A DNA stretch of 64,000 nt. Origin: Candidatus Heimdallarchaeota archaeon. Its GTDB lineage: Archaea; Asgardarchaeota; Heimdallarchaeia; Hodarchaeales; Hodarchaeaceae. Positions 5,546 to 35,466 of this stretch are shown in pieces. The notes under the pieces are model-generated. The model made no database searches. It had not been told where the DNA came from and worked only from the letters and a program-made list of their open reading frames with translations. The first letter of the stretch is position 1. Every line of letters begins with the position of its first letter. The stretch lies in NCBI GenBank assembly GCA_011364965.1, contig RDOB01000003.1, positions 432,939 through 496,938 of the forward strand. Direction: 5' to 3'. The position numbers and the translations under genes are program-made.

Positions 5546-7621
5546 TTAACGTAATAAACGTAATGAGTTTAAAATAGTTAATAAAGCAACTCCCATATCT
5601 CCAAAAACAGCTACCCACATACTAGCAAGGCCAATAGCTCCGAGAAAAATAAAAACCCCTTTTAATACTAGTGCAAAAATAATATTCTGTTTCGCTATTT
5701 TACTGGTTTTTTTTGCGATTTTTATAGATTGAGGAAGTTTAGAGGGATTATTATCCATAATCACCAAATCTGCGGCCTCAATTGTCGCATCGGAACCGAA
5801 TGCCATCGCTATTCCTATATCCGCTCGTGCTATTACGGGAGCATCATTTATACCATCCCCAACAAATGCAACATACTTATTTCCTGTTTGGACTTGTATG
5901 TATTTCTCTAGAATTTCTAATTTATTCAAAGGCATTAAACTAGCATAAACACGATCAATTCCAACCTGATTTGCAACTCTCTGTGCAATTCGTTTTGTAT
6001 CTCCTGTTAATAAAGCGATATCAGTAATATTTAAAGACTTTAACTCTTTAATGGTTTGTTGAGCAGTTGCTTTAACTTGATCATCAATTATGATATGGCC
6101 AATATATTTGCTATTTAGTACAACATAAACTGCTGTTTCATGCTGTATACACTCAGTATGTAAACAATCAATTTCGTGGATCATTTTATCATTGCCTACA
6201 ACGATAAAATTATCATCAGTGGTTTTCATAGAAATCCCCAAAGCTGGTAATTCTTCGTATTCAGCAATTAATGAGGAATCGATTGCTTTTCCATATGCTT
6301 CACGAATCGAAATCGCAATGGGATGATTCGATTGGCTTTCAGCTAAGGCTGCATAATACAATATATCATTAGGAGAATAGCTAAGTGTAGGAACTATGGT
6401 AACAACCTTAAACTTACCAATTGTAAGAGTTCCAGTCTTATCGAATAACACTGTAGATATATTTGTTAATTTATCAAGAGTATTAGCTCCTTTAAGTAAG
6501 ATACCATCTTTTGAGCTTTTCCCAATGCCAGAAAAATAAACCAAGGGAATAGAGACAACAAGGGCACATGGACAAGAAATAACCAGCACAACAAGCGCGC
6601 GATAGATCCACTCATTAAGCGACCCTCCAAATATCAGGGGGGGAATGATAGCCAGAAATAGAGCTGAAAATAGAACAAATGGAGTATAATATCGCGCAAA
6701 TCGTGTAATGAATAATTCTGTTTTGGATTTTTTTTCCGTTGCATTTTCCACCGCATTAAGTATTCTTGATACAGTTGAATCATAATAATGAGATGTTACT
6801 TTAATATGAAGGCTACCAGAGGGAATAGACCCAGAGAGAATTTCCATCCCTGCCTCAACATCAATAGGATGGCTTTCCCCAGTTAAAAAGGACATATCAA
6901 GAGTTGTTTGACCCTGAAGGATTTCTCCATCTAGTGGTACACGTTCTCCAGGTTTAACAAGTATCGTATCTCCAAGACTAATTTCAGAGATTGGGACATT
7001 TACAATTTCAGATCCATTTTCTTTATGTGCAACATCAGGCCTAATGTCAATAAGCGAACTTATGGCATGTCGGGAATGGTTCACCGCACGAGTTTGAAGG
7101 TATTCCCCAATCGTATAAAATACCATTACTGCTACTGCTTCAGGAATTTCATTGATAAAAATTGCCCCTAAAGTGGCAATAGACATCAAAAAATATTCAT
7201 TCGTAAAATCAGCTCGCTTAAGCTGTAAAAATGCTTTATAAAGAACTTTCCAGCCACTTATGATATACGCGAGAAATAAAAAAATGTTTCCTAGATGGAA
7301 AAAGGGGATTATAGGATCCGTTGTCGCAAACACTCCGAAAAATAGGAGTATTAATGCTAACCCGATTTGATATAAAGGAGATTTTGTGGGATATTTTCCT
7401 TCCATTGAATTTATCTTATAAGGAATAACCTTAATATCAGGTTCAATTGATGAAACAATCCCTTTAATGGTTTTTAAGTCATCAGATGCTATAGAAAGTG
7501 ATTGAGTAACCAAGTTTACTTTCACATCAGAAAAATTATAATTTTTCAATGCCTCTTCGATTTTTAAAGCGCAATCAGCGCAGTTTAGATTTTCAAGATT
7601 ATATCTGTTTAGAGGAGACAT
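5546..7621 (-). CDS. cadA: Heavy-metal P1B-type ATPase (Zn/Cd/Pb, CadA/ZntA-like)
   Basis: N-terminal HMA CADC, TGES, CPC, DKTGTLT, HP and GDGINDAP motifs. K in TM7 and D-x-G in TM8 are typical of P1B-2. Confidence 0.92.
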   Translation of the reverse strand: MSPLNRYNLENLNCADCALKIEEALKNYNFSDVKVNLVTQSLSIASDDLKTIKGIVSSIEPDIKVIPYKINSMEGKYPTKSPLYQIGLALILLFFGVFATTDPIIPFFHLGNIFLFLAYIISGWKVLYKAFLQLKRADFTNEYFLMSIATLGAIFINEIPEAVAVMVFYTIGEYLQTRAVNHSRHAISSLIDIRPDVAHKENGSEIVNVPISEISLGDTILVKPGERVPLDGEILQGQTTLDMSFLTGESHPIDVEAGMEILSGSIPSGSLHIKVTSHYYDSTVSRILNAVENATEKKSKTELFITRFARYYTPFVLFSALFLAIIPPLIFGGSLNEWIYRALVVLVISCPCALVVSIPLVYFSGIGKSSKDGILLKGANTLDKLTNISTVLFDKTGTLTIGKFKVVTIVPTLSYSPNDILYYAALAESQSNHPIAISIREAYGKAIDSSLIAEYEELPALGISMKTTDDNFIVVGNDKMIHEIDCLHTECIQHETAVYVVLNSKYIGHIIIDDQVKATAQQTIKELKSLNITDIALLTGDTKRIAQRVANQVGIDRVYASLMPLNKLEILEKYIQVQTGNKYVAFVGDGINDAPVIARADIGIAMAFGSDATIEAADLVIMDNNPSKLPQSIKIAKKTSKIAKQNIIFALVLKGVFIFLGAIGLASMWVAVFGDMGVALLTILNSLRLLR

Positions 7622-31484: not shown

Positions 31485-32288
31485 TTAATTTAATCCTGAA
31501 AGAAAAAAACCCACTAAGAAGGCAATAATAGCTGCACTGCCACCAACAATAAGCATTTCTAATCCTGATTTATACCAGATTTTGCCAGTGACTCGTACTT
31601 TCAAAGCTCCCAAAATAAATAGTGTTATTCCAGTTAAGAAACTAGCTATCCCAAAAGAAAAAGAACTCATTCCAGGTAAAAATAAAGTAGAAATGTAAGC
31701 TGCTAATGGTATAAACCCGAAAATAGCAAATGAAATAAAAGTAATAAGCCCATTTTTCATTGGAGATTCATCTGTTTTTACTATACCAAGTTCTTCGACC
31801 ATCATAATATCAATAAAAGCTTGTTTATTCGAGCTTAGGATTTCAACGACTATTACAGCATCCTCATAAGAAATCCCCTTCTCTGTGTAAATTTCAATCA
31901 TTTCCTTTTTCTCTCCCTCAAGAAAATTCTCCACTTCCCATTCTTCCCTATTTCGTTCCTCTTCTTGATATTCTAATTCCGATCGAGTACTAAGATAGTC
32001 TCCAATCCCCATGGAAAGCCCATCAGCTAAAAGATTAGCGAATCCAAGTATAATTACTATAAAAATATTCAAAGCTGCTCCAGTTACGCCGCAAACAACT
32101 GCAAAAGTTGTTATTATTCCATCCAGTCCTCCATAAATTATACTTTTGATATATTTTCCCTGTTCAGTTTTGTGTTCTTCTGCAGGGCATTTCATATCAT
32201 GTGCTGCGATAGATTTTTGAACATCTCCAAGTTTATAGGCTGTTTTAGCTTTGTGTAAATCCCGTTGTGGACACATATCATCCATCAC
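31485..32288 (-). CDS. VIT1/CCC1-family Fe2+/Mn2+ transporter
   Basis: IYGGLDGIITTFAVV, GFANLLADGLSMG.GDYLS, an acidic cytoplasmic domain (EE..REEWE...E..EM) and MMVEELG. Confidence 0.92.
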   Translation of the reverse strand: MMDDMCPQRDLHKAKTAYKLGDVQKSIAAHDMKCPAEEHKTEQGKYIKSIIYGGLDGIITTFAVVCGVTGAALNIFIVIILGFANLLADGLSMGIGDYLSTRSELEYQEEERNREEWEVENFLEGEKKEMIEIYTEKGISYEDAVIVVEILSSNKQAFIDIMMVEELGIVKTDESPMKNGLITFISFAIFGFIPLAAYISTLFLPGMSSFSFGIASFLTGITLFILGALKVRVTGKIWYKSGLEMLIVGGSAAIIAFLVGFFLSGLN

Positions 32289-32357: not shown

Positions 32358-32377
32358 CTGTTCACACTAGTGAACAG
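32358..32377. promoter_or_regulatory. Perfect 8-4-8 inverted repeat (candidate operator) in divergent VIT1 / P-type ATPase intergenic region
   Basis: CTGTTCAC-ACTA-GTGAACAG. Confidence 0.55.
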
Positions 32378-32460: not shown

Positions 32461-35400
32461 ATGGATTCCCAATTCATAGATTTCTGGAATGAAGGCCTAA
32501 ATTCTACTGAAGTTATCAAAAAAAAGGCGATTTATGGCGAGAATCGGTTACCAGAGAAAAAAGGCCGAAGTACTTTTATGATTTATATTTCTCAATTTAA
32601 AAACCCGTTGATATACATTATTTCTCTTGCAGCAATAATATCCCTTCTCTTGGAACAATATGAAGATACATTTATCATTATATGTGTTATTCTTCTGGAT
32701 ACTGTTATTGGATTTTTCCAAGAATATAAGGCAGAGCAAACAATGGTTGCCTTGCGGAATTTACTCAAACCAATAGCTAAAGTGATTAGAGATGGAAAAA
32801 TTCTAGAAATTTCGACAACTGAACTTGTACCCGAGGATATTGTAATAATCAATCAAGGAGATAAATTTCCTTCGGATGGGATACTAATAGAATCGCTCAA
32901 TCTCTCCGTGAATGAAGCCATCCTTACTGGGGAGAGTGAAGCAATAGTTAAAGCGACTAAAGATTTAGTTTATATGGGTACAACTGCTTTGTCTGGACGG
33001 GGGGTAATGAAAGTAGTGAATATAGGCACCAAAACTGAACTTGGAAAGATTGCGACATCACTTTCCGATATTGGGGAAGAGGAAACACCCTTACAGCTAA
33101 AGTTAGAAAATTTTGGAAAATCTCTTACTTATATCGTAATATTGATCAGCTTGAGCATTTTTGCCATAGGAGTAATATTAAAGTTTAACATTTTTGAAAT
33201 GATTAGAATGTCGGTTGTTTTGGCTATTGCTGCAATTCCAGAAGGACTGATTATTGCTGTTACTATGATTCTAGCAATTGGAATGAGAAAAATTCTGCAG
33301 AAAAACGGGCTTGTCAAAAAATTATTAGCAGTTGAAACCCTTGGGTCTGTCTCTACCATTTGTACGGATAAAACTGGTACATTAACGGAAGGAAATATGC
33401 AAGTTGTCCGCTCTGATTTTAAATCAGAGAAAATGGCTGCATATGCAATGGCTTTATGTAATAATTTAGAAGATTCGTTAGAAATTCAGCTTTGGAATTA
33501 TGTTCAAACGTTAGGAGAAGATTCAGAGCGATTAACACGTAATTTCAAAAGAATTCATGAAATTCCATTCTCAAGTGATTATAAATTTATGTTAACGACA
33601 AATCAAATAGATGGAGAAGAGGTAAGTTTAATCAAGGGAGCTCCAGATATTGTCTTAGAGTTCTGTACAATAGAAAAAGGCGAGAAGACGCAAATTTACA
33701 CACAATTAGAAGAATGGGCAGGTTCTGGTTTAAAACTTCTTGGATTAGCGTACAAAAAAGATGGTAATATAAAAGAGGTGGAAGGATTTACATGGATTGG
33801 ACTTATTGGTTTTGAAGACCCCATTCGGCCTTCAGTTAAGGAAGCTATAGCTCTATGTCAGCGTGCAGGGATAAAAGTCAAGATTATAACTGGAGATTAC
33901 CAACGAACTGCAATTAAGGTCGCATCAAATCTTGGATTATCTGTTGGACAAGATAAAGTCATTAGTGGAGAGGAAGTAGAAAAATTATCTGATACAGAAT
34001 TATTAGAAATTGTTGAAGCTATTATCATATTTTATCGAGTTACTCCTCAACATAAATTAAGAATTGTAACAGCTCTTCAAAAATGTGGGGAAATTACTGC
34101 AATGATAGGCGATGGAGTAAACGACGCGCCTGCCTTAAAAAAAGCGAATATTGGAGTTTCCGTGGGAGGTGCAACAGATGTGGCTCAAGAAACAGCAAGC
34201 TTAATTCTTCTTGACCATAATTTCAAAACACTAGTTGATTCAGTAGAAGAGGGAAGAATTGTTTTTGACAATATAAAGAAAGTTGTCTCATTTGTGCTAT
34301 CAAACTCGTTTGCTGAAATCTTTACGATTTTTGGATCATTCATTTTAGGATGGCCGACGCCTTTAACAATCGCTCAAATTCTTTGGATTCATTTGATATG
34401 TGATGGACCTTCAGATGTAGCTCTCGGATTTGAAAGAGGAGAAAAAGGGATAATGGATGAACCACCTAGAAGAATAGATGAGAATATTCTGGACGCGAAG
34501 GGAAAGGTTCTTATTGCATCTATCAGTACAGTTTCAGCATTATTATGCCTAAGTATTTATGGTTATTTCCATCTTGTAGTAGGGAACCAAATATTAGGAA
34601 GTACATTAGTATTTGCAATATTAGGAATTCAATCGCTAATCTACATCTTCTCTTTTCGCAGTCTCAGACTTCCAATATTTAAATCTGGTAATTTTCTCTC
34701 TAATAAACCATTGGTCTTTTCAGTAGTATTAGGAATAAGTCAGATTCTTATTGGCCTTTATTTCCCCTTTTTCAGTGATATCCTAAATGTTACACCTCTC
34801 TATGTAAATGATTGGATAATTGTAATTTCAGTTTCTTTTTTAATGATCTTTATTGTTGAAATGGTTAAATATTTTGATCATCGAAGAAATCTCACCTCAC
34901 CCTACCAAAATATCATCACAAATATTCGAAAAGTGGAGGAAAAACTACCTGAAATTCATAATCTACATAATATCACGCTTGATATAATGGAAGATAAGAC
35001 CCTAATTCAATTCCATTTCAATATTCCGGCTGAAACAACACTCGAGATTGCCCATGAAGTGGCAAGAGGGATCGAAAATTTGATCGTAGAAGAAATCCCA
35101 CAATCAATTCGAAAAAGTATAGAGATTATTAGCCACATTGAGCCAGTTTCTGAAGAACCTCGAAAAATCCATTCACATCCCACACCTACTCCATCTCGAT
35201 CAATCAGAGAAATAATTCAAGCATCAATAAAAGAAATCCCGGAAATTAAAAATTGGGGACGTGAAACTGTACTTCAAGATAATGGTAATACTTCAATATC
35301 AATAGTAATTTATCTAGATGGAAATTTGAACATAAACCAAGTGCATGATTATACGGAAAAATTGGAAACGATCCTTAGAAGGAATATCCCCTCTTTAAAA

Positions 35401-35466
35401 CGCTGCATTATTCACTCAGAGCCATTGAAAGAATTCTCAGGAGGAATGAGAACATCTATATCTTAA
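32461..35466 (+). CDS. P2A-like (Ca/Mn-type) P-type ATPase with two C-terminal CDF-type (ZT_dimer-like) domains
   Basis: LTGES, IPEGL, DKTGTLT, KGAP, DP, TGD and GDGVNDAP motifs. Tail repeats TTLEIAHEVARGIE...ISHIEP and LNINQVHDYTEKLE...IIHSEP. Confidence 0.9.
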   Translation: MDSQFIDFWNEGLNSTEVIKKKAIYGENRLPEKKGRSTFMIYISQFKNPLIYIISLAAIISLLLEQYEDTFIIICVILLDTVIGFFQEYKAEQTMVALRNLLKPIAKVIRDGKILEISTTELVPEDIVIINQGDKFPSDGILIESLNLSVNEAILTGESEAIVKATKDLVYMGTTALSGRGVMKVVNIGTKTELGKIATSLSDIGEEETPLQLKLENFGKSLTYIVILISLSIFAIGVILKFNIFEMIRMSVVLAIAAIPEGLIIAVTMILAIGMRKILQKNGLVKKLLAVETLGSVSTICTDKTGTLTEGNMQVVRSDFKSEKMAAYAMALCNNLEDSLEIQLWNYVQTLGEDSERLTRNFKRIHEIPFSSDYKFMLTTNQIDGEEVSLIKGAPDIVLEFCTIEKGEKTQIYTQLEEWAGSGLKLLGLAYKKDGNIKEVEGFTWIGLIGFEDPIRPSVKEAIALCQRAGIKVKIITGDYQRTAIKVASNLGLSVGQDKVISGEEVEKLSDTELLEIVEAIIIFYRVTPQHKLRIVTALQKCGEITAMIGDGVNDAPALKKANIGVSVGGATDVAQETASLILLDHNFKTLVDSVEEGRIVFDNIKKVVSFVLSNSFAEIFTIFGSFILGWPTPLTIAQILWIHLICDGPSDVALGFERGEKGIMDEPPRRIDENILDAKGKVLIASISTVSALLCLSIYGYFHLVVGNQILGSTLVFAILGIQSLIYIFSFRSLRLPIFKSGNFLSNKPLVFSVVLGISQILIGLYFPFFSDILNVTPLYVNDWIIVISVSFLMIFIVEMVKYFDHRRNLTSPYQNIITNIRKVEEKLPEIHNLHNITLDIMEDKTLIQFHFNIPAETTLEIAHEVARGIENLIVEEIPQSIRKSIEIISHIEPVSEEPRKIHSHPTPTPSRSIREIIQASIKEIPEIKNWGRETVLQDNGNTSISIVIYLDGNLNINQVHDYTEKLETILRRNIPSLKRCIIHSEPLKEFSGGMRTSIS

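What the first reader, a model, noticed from the sequence alone, without database searches (positions are those of the whole stretch)
32461..35466. P2A-type ATPase with His/Cys-rewired ion site and two fused CDF-type metal-binding domains
Seen: the TM6 segment reads QILWIHLICDG (His codon 34390-34392, Cys 34399-34401) and TM5 reads LSNSFAE. Knowledge: SERCA has QLLWVNLVTDG (N796, T799, D800) and ISSNVGE, so oxygen-donor Ca2+ ligands are replaced by softer His/Cys. After the last TM, ~190 aa form two tandem units (..TLEIAHEVARGIE..ISHIEP and ..NINQVHDYTEKLE..IIHSEP) resembling the cytoplasmic ZT_dimer domain of cation diffusion facilitators, joined by a HSHPTPTP linker. I do not know this architecture on a P2 ATPase. 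Inference: a Ca-pump scaffold converted into a Mn/Fe/Zn pump with CDF-like sensing or chaperone domains.
Basis: partly seen in the sequence, partly recalled or inferred. Interest (0 to 1): 0.8.

Follow-up and report, generated by a model that had tools for sequence, protein, structure and literature searches.

The report
Metal-type P2 pump with CDF sensor tail
An Asgard archaeon carries a calcium-pump-like P-type ATPase whose ion site has histidine and cysteine ligands and whose tail is two fused metal-binding domains borrowed from zinc/iron exporters, so it is probably an undescribed, self-regulating transition-metal efflux pump.

Summary
Each passes Pfam's cut-off and folds like CzcD/MamM CTDs (TM 0.87-0.90).

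Two corrections:
- The His/Cys TM6 motif WIHLICDG is not special to this gene. It is invariant in all 120 best homologues, about 90 of them tail-less, and occurs in at least 120 species genomes, mostly bacteria.
- The tail is a portable module. A CDF transporter carries the same tandem pair at 47% identity, and many CDFs carry 3 or 5 ZT_dimers.

The fusion to an ATPase is rare (about 28 protein clusters) and every named source is Asgard.

Evidence for a transition-metal substrate is contextual:
- alpha5-type ArsR genes lie directly upstream in 7 bacterial loci;
- VIT1 is adjacent here and in Chloroflexota;
- canonical Ca-type paralogues coexist in this genome.

A complex prediction supports an intramolecular D1-D2 pseudo-dimer (0.68 vs best control 0.00), though this may reflect solved CDF dimers.

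The metal and the regulatory role are inferred, not shown. No paper on this architecture was found. The scan had already noted the same architecture on other genomes.

The parts
32461..35466 (+). Complete gene for a 1001-aa P2A-like P-type ATPase with a C-terminal tandem ZT_dimer tail (P0001)
   Evidence: ORF list and translation. Pfam: Cation_ATPase_N, E1-E2_ATPase, Hydrolase, Cation_ATPase_C and 2x ZT_dimer. The full-length AF2 model has pLDDT 78.5 and 10 TM helices. Foldseek top hits are LMCA1 and SPCA1 at 32-33% identity.
33238..33249 (+). TM4 PEGL motif (residues 260-263); Glu261 corresponds to SERCA E309 / SPCA1 E308
   Evidence: Alignment to SPCA1. At least 90% conserved in 82 subfamily members.
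33367..33381 (+). DKTGT phosphorylation motif (Asp303)
   Evidence: Seen in the translation. Invariant in the family.
34297..34317 (+). TM5 LSNSFAE (residues 613-619): Ser616 at SERCA N768, Glu619 at SERCA E771
34375..34407 (+). TM6 QILWIHLICDG (residues 639-649): His644 at SERCA N796, Cys647 at T799, Asp648 at D800
   Evidence: H644, C647 and D648 are invariant in all 120 best homologues and in the 82-row alignment.
34630..34644 (+). TM8 QSLIY (residues 724-728): Ser725 aligns with SPCA1 Asp / SERCA E908, and Tyr728 with SERCA N911
   Evidence: Hand reading of the SPCA1 alignment. Y728 is invariant.
34900..35145 (+). ZT_dimer domain 1 (residues 814-895), alpha-beta-beta-alpha-beta. It keeps all five aligned YiiP site-C ligands as His836, His852, His865, His892 and Glu894.
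   Evidence: Pfam 33.8 bits. Genome search places the match at window 34909-35145. Fold. Alignment to Shewanella YiiP H234/H250/H263/H285. Invariant in the family.
35146..35196 (+). Low-confidence linker (residues 896-912) with invariant His904-x-His906-Pro
   Evidence: pLDDT below 50. H94/H96 of the tail alignment are invariant in 23 sequences. The related CDF P0123 has HHHP at this place.
35197..35424 (+). ZT_dimer domain 2 (residues 913-988). It keeps only three of the five ligands (His962, His985, Glu987), plus a near-invariant Cys982.
   Evidence: Pfam 33.0 bits. Genome search places the match at window 35197-35424. pLDDT 78-93. Alignment to CzcD CTD 6vda (E 1.3e-7) and to YiiP.
31485..32288 (-). 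Divergently transcribed VIT1-family (Fe2+/Mn2+ exporter family) gene, 267 aa; the only VIT1 in the genome
   Evidence: Pfam PF01988, 227 bits. Single copy in G000. Not adjacent in five other Asgard loci, but adjacent in five Chloroflexota loci of tail-less relatives.
32358..32377 (.). Perfect 8-4-8 palindrome CTGTTCAC-ACTA-GTGAACAG in the 172-bp divergent gap; a candidate operator only
   Evidence: It is the only zero-mismatch copy in the genome, but near-matches are not enriched over the control (8 vs 6). It is not conserved upstream of orthologues.

Best explanation
The gene encodes an active P2A-like P-type ATPase. It belongs to a large, uncharacterised prokaryotic subfamily whose membrane ion site has been rebuilt from the all-oxygen Ca2+ site of SERCA/SPCA. 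The new set is Glu261 (TM4), Ser616/Glu619 (TM5) and His644/Cys647/Asp648 (TM6). I infer that this subfamily exports a divalent transition metal from the cytoplasm, not Ca2+. Fe2+, Zn2+, Co2+ or Ni2+ are the candidates and cannot be told apart here.

In some Asgard archaea, including this one, the pump has picked up a ready-made tandem pair of CDF C-terminal domains after TM10, on the cytoplasmic side. I infer that the two domains pack against each other within one chain. This would copy the homodimer that CDF tails form between two protomers. It would make one complete YiiP-type site-C metal site (His836, His852, His892 and Glu894 of domain 1, plus His962 of domain 2) and one reduced site (His985 and Glu987 of domain 2, plus His865 of domain 1). 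Binding of excess cytoplasmic metal there would close the pair and switch the pump on. That would be a post-translational substrate sensor, comparable in logic to the metal-binding domains of P1B ATPases and the autoinhibitory tails of PMCA.

Shown: the architecture, its conservation, the fold and the gene neighbourhoods. Inferred: the substrate class, metal binding by the tail, and the regulatory effect.
For: - **Intact catalytic motifs and topology.** DKTGT, TGES, TGD and GDGVNDAPALKKA are present, with 10 TM helices, so the C-terminus is cytoplasmic.
- **Invariant His/Cys/Asp.** H644, C647 and D648 are invariant in all 120 best homologues and in an 82-row alignment.
- **Canonical Ca-type paralogues coexist.** The same genome also has P2A pumps of the usual type (one reads WINLMTDG in TM6) and two CPC-type P1B pumps, so this is an extra paralogue with a different site.
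- **ArsR operons.** Among 74 loci of tail-less relatives, a co-directional arsR gene lies 0-70 bp upstream of the pump in 7. Six of the 8 clustered ArsR proteins carry the alpha5 metal-sensor motif DxHx10HxxE.
- **VIT1 adjacency.** VIT1 is adjacent here and co-directionally adjacent in 5 Chloroflexota loci. One of these reads arsR-pump-VIT1.
- **Other metal-related neighbours.** A NikR_C gene and a stand-alone ZT_dimer gene flank one tail-less member, and CutA1 lies near a Lokiarchaeota member.
- **Tail domains.** Two ZT_dimer domains pass Pfam's cut-off. The fold matches CzcD CTD 6vda (TMt 0.87, rmsd 1.5 A) and MamM CTD (TMt 0.88-0.90).
- **Metal ligands.** Domain 1 keeps the His at all four aligned YiiP site-C histidines plus the HxEP acid. 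Domain 2 keeps three. All are invariant in 23 tails. YiiP site C is a binuclear site engaging both protomers (PMC10617992).
- **Domain pairing.** A complex prediction of domain 1 against domain 2 scored ipSAE 0.68 against a best control of 0.00. That mark was reached by 58 of 80 solved complexes and 2 of 110 mismatched pairs. Runs agreed in at least 91% of contacts and partner pLDDT was at least 82. The interface includes H852, H865, H892, E894 and H962, H985, E987.
- **Portable module.** The same module, including the HxHP linker, is 47% identical over 175 aa to the C-terminal part of a CDF transporter.
- **Two fusion types.** A second ATPase clade carries three ZT_dimers whose last two are only 26% identical to this tail. 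On the core tree that clade stands apart from the two-domain forms. This suggests two fusion events.
Against: - No transport, binding or expression data exist for any member.
- The neighbourhood signals are minority signals (7 and 5 of 74 loci). The five VIT1 loci are one lineage (73-94% identity).
- VIT1 is not adjacent in five other Asgard loci.
- The neighbours point to different metals: the ArsR alpha5 site and NikR to Zn/Co/Ni, VIT1 to Fe/Mn.
- Glu261, Glu619 and Asp648 are kept, so Ca2+ or Mn2+ binding is not excluded by sequence.
- The pseudo-dimer prediction may come from the model's memory of solved CDF CTD dimers, and my own alignment was used.
- Domain 1 is modelled with only moderate confidence (pLDDT 56-81), and the single-chain tail model has pTM 0.57.
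- The clade with three ZT_dimers does not fit a simple 'pairs only' rule.
- The idea that the pump replaces missing CDFs failed. A same-genus carrier has three CDF genes.
Confidence: 0.55

Rival explanations
1. The pump moves a transition metal as above, but the tail is not an allosteric switch. Either it dimerises two pump molecules (domain 1 with domain 1', domain 2 with domain 2'), as CDF tails do, or it acts as a built-in chaperone or buffer that hands metal to the membrane entry site.
For: ZT_dimer is by definition a dimerisation domain, and its fold is metallochaperone-like. A clade with three ZT_dimers exists, and an odd number cannot be fully paired within one chain. The long flexible linker and the moderate pTM of 0.57 leave the arrangement open.
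Against: Domain 1 and domain 2 have diverged from each other (no BLASTP similarity, hhalign 23% identity). Their ligand sets complement each other, complete in domain 1 and reduced in domain 2, as expected for a fixed heteropair. The heteropair prediction passed its controls. CDFs carry 1, 3 or 5 ZT_dimers, which fits one intermolecular domain plus intramolecular pairs.
Confidence: 0.2
2. It is still a Ca2+ (or Ca2+/Mn2+) pump of the SPCA/LMCA1 kind. His644 and Cys647 tune proton counter-transport or pH dependence, and the tail couples Ca2+ or Mn2+ export to cytoplasmic zinc or iron status.
For: The best family and structure matches are PMR1/SPCA1 and LMCA1. Glu261, Glu619 and Asp648 are retained. 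SPCA1 already has a non-ligand Met at the Cys647 position. Public annotations call relatives 'Ca2+-transporting ATPase'.
Against: The protein scores far below the PMR1 and SERCA equivalog cut-offs (555.6 vs 798.3; 461.4 vs 703.4). The Asn that ligates Ca2+ in SERCA, SPCA and LMCA1 is invariantly His across a whole subfamily. Canonical Ca-type paralogues are present in the same genome. The recurring neighbours are transition-metal regulators and exporters, not Ca-related genes.
Confidence: 0.13
3. The fusion is an artefact of assembly or gene calling, or a decaying gene remnant.
For: None found. It was considered only because the source is a metagenome-type assembly (87% complete).
Against: It is one uninterrupted frame. 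About 28 independent protein clusters from different studies share the same architecture and invariant tail residues. Loci come from several named Asgard MAGs.
Confidence: 0.01

Closest known systems
SPCA1/PMR1 and Listeria LMCA1 (P2A Ca2+/Mn2+ ATPases)
   Same: They share the overall fold, 10 TM helices, all catalytic motifs, PEGL in TM4 and the TM6 Asp. They are the best sequence and structure matches (458 and 452 bits, 32-33% identity, TMt up to 0.72). They export ions from the cytoplasm.
   Different: The TM6 Asn ligand is His and the next ligand position is Cys. The SERCA E771-equivalent Glu is kept, whereas SPCA1 has Ala there. The protein is below the NCBIfam equivalog cut-offs. Those pumps have no C-terminal metal-binding domains.
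CDF transporters YiiP/FieF, CzcD, MamM (C-terminal domain, Pfam ZT_dimer)
   Same: The tail domains have the same fold and the same His/His/His/His-x-Asp(Glu) ligand pattern as YiiP site C. The predicted pairing uses the ligand-bearing faces. One CDF carries the same tandem module at 47% identity.
   Different: There is no Cation_efflux membrane domain. The domains are attached to an ATP-driven pump. The two copies are in one chain instead of one copy per protomer, and the second copy has lost two of the five ligands.
P1B heavy-metal ATPases (CopA, ZntA, CzcP/PfeT) with regulatory metal-binding domains
   Same: The proposed job is the same: ATP-driven export of transition metals, with cytoplasmic metal-binding domains that tune activity, often under ArsR/SmtB-type regulators.
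   Different: The scaffold is different: P2-type with 10 TM helices and PEGL, not CPC/SPC with 8 TM helices. The sensor fold is a CDF CTD, not HMA or His-rich. The genome has its own CPC-type P1B pumps as well.
PMCA / plant ACA and P3 H+-ATPase autoinhibitory tails
   Same: The logic is a terminal regulatory extension on a P2/P3 pump that responds to the cytoplasmic signal.
   Different: Those tails bind calmodulin or 14-3-3 proteins, or are phosphorylated. Here the tail would bind the transported metal directly. The regulatory effect is only inferred.

Membership tests
P-type ATPase superfamily, P2 type | DKTGT phosphorylation site, TGES, TGD and GDGxND motifs | tested here: met
   All are present in the translation and invariant in relatives. 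Pfam E1-E2_ATPase, Hydrolase, Cation_ATPase_N and Cation_ATPase_C all match.
P-type ATPase superfamily, P2 type | Ten TM helices with PEGL in an unwound TM4 | tested here: met
   The AF2 model has helices at 49-63, 67-100, 210-239, 244-280 (broken at 259-260), 589-628, 637-655, 679-707, 710-733, 749-775 and 782-809. PEGL is at residues 260-263.
PMR1/SPCA-type Ca2+ ATPase (NCBIfam TIGR01522 equivalog) | Score at or above the curated cut-off of 798.3 bits | tested here: not met
   555.6 bits.
SERCA-type Ca2+ ATPase (NCBIfam TIGR01116 equivalog) | Score at or above the curated cut-off of 703.4 bits | tested here: not met
   461.4 bits.
Ca2+-transporting P2A ATPases | Oxygen-only ligand set at TM5/TM6/TM8 (SERCA N768, E771, N796, T799, D800, E908; SPCA N738, D742) | tested here: not met
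   N796/N738 is His644, T799 is Cys647, N768 is Ser616 and the E908 position is Ser725. Only E309, E771 and D800 equivalents are kept.
Ca2+-transporting P2A ATPases | Ca2+-dependent ATPase activity or transport | not testable with these tools
   Needs biochemistry.
CDF C-terminal domain (Pfam ZT_dimer PF16916) | Score above the gathering cut-off of 26.7 bits | tested here: met
   33.8 and 33.0 bits for the two halves searched separately.
CDF C-terminal domain (Pfam ZT_dimer PF16916) | Alpha-beta-beta-alpha-beta metallochaperone-like fold | tested here: met
   Secondary structure. Foldseek: 6vda at TMt 0.87 and MamM CTDs at TMt 0.85-0.90, rmsd 1.3-1.7 A.
CDF C-terminal domain (Pfam ZT_dimer PF16916) | Site-C metal ligands (Shewanella YiiP H234, H250, H263, H285, D287) | tested here: met
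   Domain 1 has 5 of 5 (H836, H852, H865, H892, E894). Domain 2 has 3 of 5 (H962, H985, E987). Actual metal binding was not tested.
CDF C-terminal domain (Pfam ZT_dimer PF16916) | Forms a two-fold dimer through the ligand-bearing face | tested here: inconclusive
   The domain 1 / domain 2 heteropair prediction scored 0.68 against a best control of 0.00, with equivalent residues on both sides. This may reflect likeness to solved CDF dimers. No experiment exists.
Cation diffusion facilitator transporter | Cation_efflux (PF01545) six-helix membrane domain | tested here: not met
   It is absent from the protein and from the whole 87%-complete genome.
P1B heavy-metal ATPase | CPC/SPC-type TM4 motif, HMA or His-rich N-terminal domains, score above the TIGR01525 cut-off | tested here: not met
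   TM4 is PEGL. TIGR01525 scores 267.2 bits against a cut-off of 346.25. No HMA domain was found.

The most novel reading that the evidence does not exclude
WIHLICDG pumps are an unrecognised branch of P2-type ATPases that export Fe2+/Zn2+/Co2+/Ni2+ through a His-Cys-Asp-Glu site. They are widespread in anaerobic bacteria and archaea and are mislabelled as Ca2+ pumps. Asgard archaea fused them, probably twice independently, to a portable tandem CDF-CTD module. That module folds into a single-chain copy of the CDF tail dimer and works as a plug-in metal sensor for unrelated exporter scaffolds (CDFs and P-type ATPases alike).
Probability: 0.4. Interest if true: 0.8.

Novelty: new variant of a known kind. 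Interest (0 to 1): 0.7.

Why it matters
Transition-metal transport by P-type ATPases is, as far as I know, assigned to the P1B class. P2 pumps are known for Ca2+/Mn2+, Na+/K+ and H+/K+.

It is found in at least 120 species genomes and sits next to metal sensors and exporters. Many 'Ca2+-transporting ATPase' annotations would then need re-labelling.

The tail shows that the CDF C-terminal domain can travel as a tandem, probably self-pairing unit between unrelated exporters. That gives a simple natural test of whether CDF tails are true allosteric metal sensors, which is still debated for CDFs themselves. It also offers a compact single-chain model for studying them.

Tried and rejected
- **Pump replaces missing CDFs.** The own genome has no Cation_efflux gene, and its only ZT_dimers are in this pump. 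But a same-genus genome with the fused pump has three CDF genes, and 16 of 22 genomes of the genus have CDFs. Rejected.
- **VIT1 as a conserved partner of the fused form.** VIT1 was not found next to the gene in five other Asgard loci. It is kept only as local context, plus an independent Chloroflexota case.
- **Palindrome 32358-32377 as a regulon operator.** It has the only perfect copy in the genome, but near-matches are not enriched over the control (8 vs 6). The single one-mismatch copy lies inside an ORF. No similar palindrome lies upstream of the orthologues. Left as a candidate only.
- **Recent duplication of domains 1 and 2.** There is no BLASTP similarity, and only a weak profile match (E 1.7e-4, 23% identity). 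The pair is old and was inherited as a pair.
- **Single origin of all tails.** The core tree leaves a polytomy. One origin is not excluded by starred branches. However, the three-domain clade's tail is only 26% identical to this one, while a CDF module is 47% identical. I therefore favour two acquisitions.
- **Literature.** Nothing was found for 'P-type ATPase' with 'ZT_dimer', for the TM6 motif strings, for Asgard with P2A, or for FUPA with archaea.
- **Protein names from cluster look-up.** These gave no characterised member.
Full report
**What is there.** The stretch 32461-35466 (+) is one uninterrupted ORF of 1001 codons starting with ATG. Pfam finds the full set of P2-type ATPase domains: Cation_ATPase_N, E1-E2_ATPase, Hydrolase, Cation_ATPase and Cation_ATPase_C, the last ending at residue 805. 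After these come two ZT_dimer matches. Searched separately, each half of the tail passes the gathering cut-off of 26.7 bits. Residues 817-895 score 33.8 bits and residues about 913-988 score 33.0 bits. The catalytic motifs DKTGT, TGES, TGD and GDGVNDAPALKKA are all intact.

**Ion site.** The best solved relatives are human SPCA1 (458 bits) and Listeria LMCA1 (452 bits). SERCA follows at about 360 bits. The best NCBIfam model is PMR1-type, but at 555.6 bits it is far below its cut-off of 798.3.
- The SPCA1 alignment puts PEGL (Glu261) on the TM4 site.
- LSNSFAE aligns with SPCA1 LSTSIAA and SERCA ISSNVGE. So SERCA N768 is Ser616 and E771 is kept as Glu619.
- QILWIHLICDG aligns with SPCA1 QILWINIIMDG. 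So the Ca-ligating Asn is His644, the next ligand position is Cys647, and the Asp is kept (Asp648).
- In TM8 the SERCA E908 position is Ser725.
- A full-length model (pLDDT 78.5, pTM 0.68) has ten membrane helices, so the tail is cytoplasmic. It matches LMCA1, SPCA1 and SERCA structures.

**The His/Cys site marks a large subfamily.** All 120 best homologues carry W-I-H-[LV]-[IV]-C-D-G, LS[ND]SFAE and PEGL. About 90 of them are tail-less proteins of roughly 800-880 aa, 52-63% identical to this one. In an 82-row alignment H644, C647, D648, S614, S616, D652 and Y728 are invariant, and E261 and E619 are at least 90% conserved. The listed hits are mostly bacteria: Chloroflexota/Anaerolineae, CPR groups, Bacillota and Spirochaetes. 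A few are Proteobacteria, and there are also Bathyarchaeia and Thermoproteota. I found no characterised member and no paper mentioning the motif.

**Evidence on the substrate.** All of this is contextual.
- *Paralogues in this genome.* The own genome (2.97 Mb, 87% complete) encodes six P-type ATPases. Two are CPC-type P1B pumps. Two are canonical P2A pumps, one of which reads WINLMTDG in TM6. One is of another type, and the sixth is this gene. The His/Cys pump is therefore an additional paralogue, not the cell's Ca2+ pump.
- *ArsR operons.* I clustered the neighbours of 74 tail-less loci. A co-directional arsR-family gene lies 0-70 bp upstream of the pump in seven loci. Six of the eight clustered ArsR proteins carry the alpha5 sensor motif DxHx10HxxE. 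From general knowledge, that motif is typical of the Zn/Co/Ni sensors SmtB, CzrA and NmtR.
- *VIT1 adjacency.* A VIT1 gene is co-directionally adjacent in five Chloroflexota loci, and one of these reads arsR-pump-VIT1. These five are one lineage, with 73-94% identity between the VIT1 proteins. In the window, the genome's only VIT1 gene is divergently transcribed 172 bp away.
- *Other neighbours.* One tail-less member has a NikR_C gene next to it and a stand-alone ZT_dimer protein nearby. A Lokiarchaeota member has CutA1 nearby.
- *Limits.* These are minority signals and point to different metals. VIT1 is not adjacent in five other Asgard loci. I conclude that a divalent transition metal is more likely than Ca2+, at about 0.7.

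**The tail.** A model built from 23 tails shows two alpha-beta-beta-alpha-beta units joined by a disordered linker. Foldseek matches single units to the Thermotoga CzcD CTD (6vda, TMt 0.87, rmsd 1.5 A) and to many MamM CTD entries (TMt 0.85-0.90).
- Profile alignment to Shewanella YiiP puts domain 1's His836, His852, His865 and His892 on H234, H250, H263 and H285. Its HIEP falls on YiiP's HQDP.
- Domain 2 keeps only the H263, H285 and D287 equivalents: His962, His985 and Glu987.
- All of these residues are invariant across the tails, as is an HxHP in the linker.
- YiiP site C is a binuclear site of four His and two Asp that engages both protomers (PMC10617992).
- The two domains are only distantly alike. 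The pair is therefore old.

**Pairing of the two domains.** A complex prediction of domain 1 against domain 2 gave ipSAE 0.68 against a best control of 0.00. That mark was reached by 58 of 80 solved complexes and 2 of 110 mismatched pairs. The runs agreed in at least 91% of contacts, and the partner's pLDDT was at least 82. The interface uses equivalent positions in both domains and includes the ligand residues. The model supports pairing but does not show it. CDF CTD dimers are solved, so the pass may be partly memory. If the pairing is real, it would give one complete site-C-like site (four ligands from domain 1 plus His962) and one reduced site (His985 and Glu987 plus His865).

**Origin and spread of the tail.** A profile of the tail finds 976 cluster representatives, 311 of them below E 1e-10.
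- Of ten I scanned, five full-length ones are CDFs with a Cation_efflux domain and two to five ZT_dimer matches, mostly three (one shows two, one five). Three contain ZT_dimer repeats only, and the rest look like fragments.
- The closest is a 495-aa CDF whose last 175 residues are 47% identical to this tail, linker included. Its membrane quartet reads DxxxD / DxxxN, and its best named models are FieF and MntE.
- In a 201-genome sample of the window's phylum, 72 genomes have the module. Only the own genome and one same-genus genome have it in a frame of about 1000 aa. The other full-length matches listed sit in frames of about 420-550 aa, the size of the CDF forms with several ZT_dimers seen (not re-scanned here), or about 220-290 aa, with a few truncated at contig ends.
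- Fused ATPases form about 28 clusters at 90% identity. Every named one is Asgard: Hodarchaeota, Hodarchaeum mangrovi, Hermodarchaeota, Lokiarchaeota or Promethearchaeota.
- Four of the clusters carry three ZT_dimers. The last two of these are only 26% identical to this tail. On the core tree that clade stands apart from the two-domain forms, although the backbone is unresolved. I read this as probably two independent fusions of CDF tail modules to the same pump subfamily.

**Mechanism proposed.** I propose ATP-driven export of a divalent transition metal through the His/Cys/Asp/Glu site. A single-chain copy of the CDF tail dimer would act as a cytoplasmic metal sensor that activates the pump. 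The architecture, conservation, fold and neighbourhoods are shown. The substrate, metal binding by the tail and the regulatory effect are inferred. The main alternatives are that the tail dimerises pumps or delivers metal, or that the pump still moves Ca2+/Mn2+.

**Novelty.** Full-text searches returned nothing on a P-type ATPase with ZT_dimer domains, on the motif, or on Asgard P2A pumps. Public annotations are generic ('HAD-IC family P-type ATPase', 'Ca2+-transporting ATPase'). Earlier first-reader notes of this scan saw the same fused architecture and the same TM6 motif on other genomes. Those notes are unchecked and I do not count them as evidence. I class the finding as a new variant of a known kind.

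Noticed in passing
window:31485-32288 (-) and 32358-32377: The genome's only VIT1-family gene is divergent from the pump. A perfect 8-4-8 palindrome, CTGTTCAC-ACTA-GTGAACAG, sits in the shared 172-bp gap, just upstream of a TATA-like CTTTATT on the pump side. It is unique in the genome at zero mismatches. Near-matches are not enriched, and it is not conserved at orthologues.
   Followed up: partly
L007:503-1951, L008:5020-6459, P0123, P0126, P0141: Many CDF transporters carry extra ZT_dimer domains. Those checked show 3 or 5 (one shows 2), a pattern of one canonical tail plus one or two tandem pairs. Stand-alone proteins of two or three ZT_dimers also exist (P0124, P0135, P0142). 311 cluster representatives match the tandem module below E 1e-10. 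I know of no study of these multi-CTD forms.
   Followed up: partly
L032:1132-1431, L033:767-1066, L084:5571-5909, L086:5313-5633, L098:4948-5277: ArsR-family regulators upstream of tail-less WIHLICDG pumps share the alpha5 motif DPHx10HxxE and also a conserved N-terminal LDEHxAAHVAELF segment. The two extra His might complete a six-coordinate (Ni/Co/Fe-like) site.
   Followed up: no
P0025, P0026, P0027, P0029 (L145:5001-8201): A separate clade of about 1065-aa WIHLICDG pumps has three ZT_dimer domains. Its last two keep His at the beta1 and beta2 positions in both domains and lack the HxHP linker. An HTH_20-like gene lies next to one of them.
   Followed up: partly
window about 6509-7042 (-) (G000:C11:439447-439980, L016): A 704-aa CPC-type P1B heavy-metal ATPase lies in the same window, about 25 kb from the His/Cys pump. 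A second CPC pump, with a Cys-rich N-terminus, is on contig 9 (L012).
   Followed up: no
G000 whole genome: No Cation_efflux (CDF) gene was found in the 87%-complete 2.97-Mb genome, whereas 16 of 22 same-genus genomes and all 14 control genomes have one. The genome is also about 1 Mb smaller than most of its genus.
   Followed up: partly
L147:7795-8199 and L147:1-136: A tail-less pump on a 792-kb contig has a NikR_C-domain gene as its immediate convergent neighbour, and a stand-alone 256-aa ZT_dimer protein 5 kb away.
   Followed up: no
L019, L024, L032, L036, L040, L047, L053, L074, L091: A membrane protein of unknown family (no Pfam hit, 110-240 aa) recurs within one to three genes of tail-less pumps in 10 of 74 loci. 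It is the most frequent neighbour cluster.
   Followed up: no
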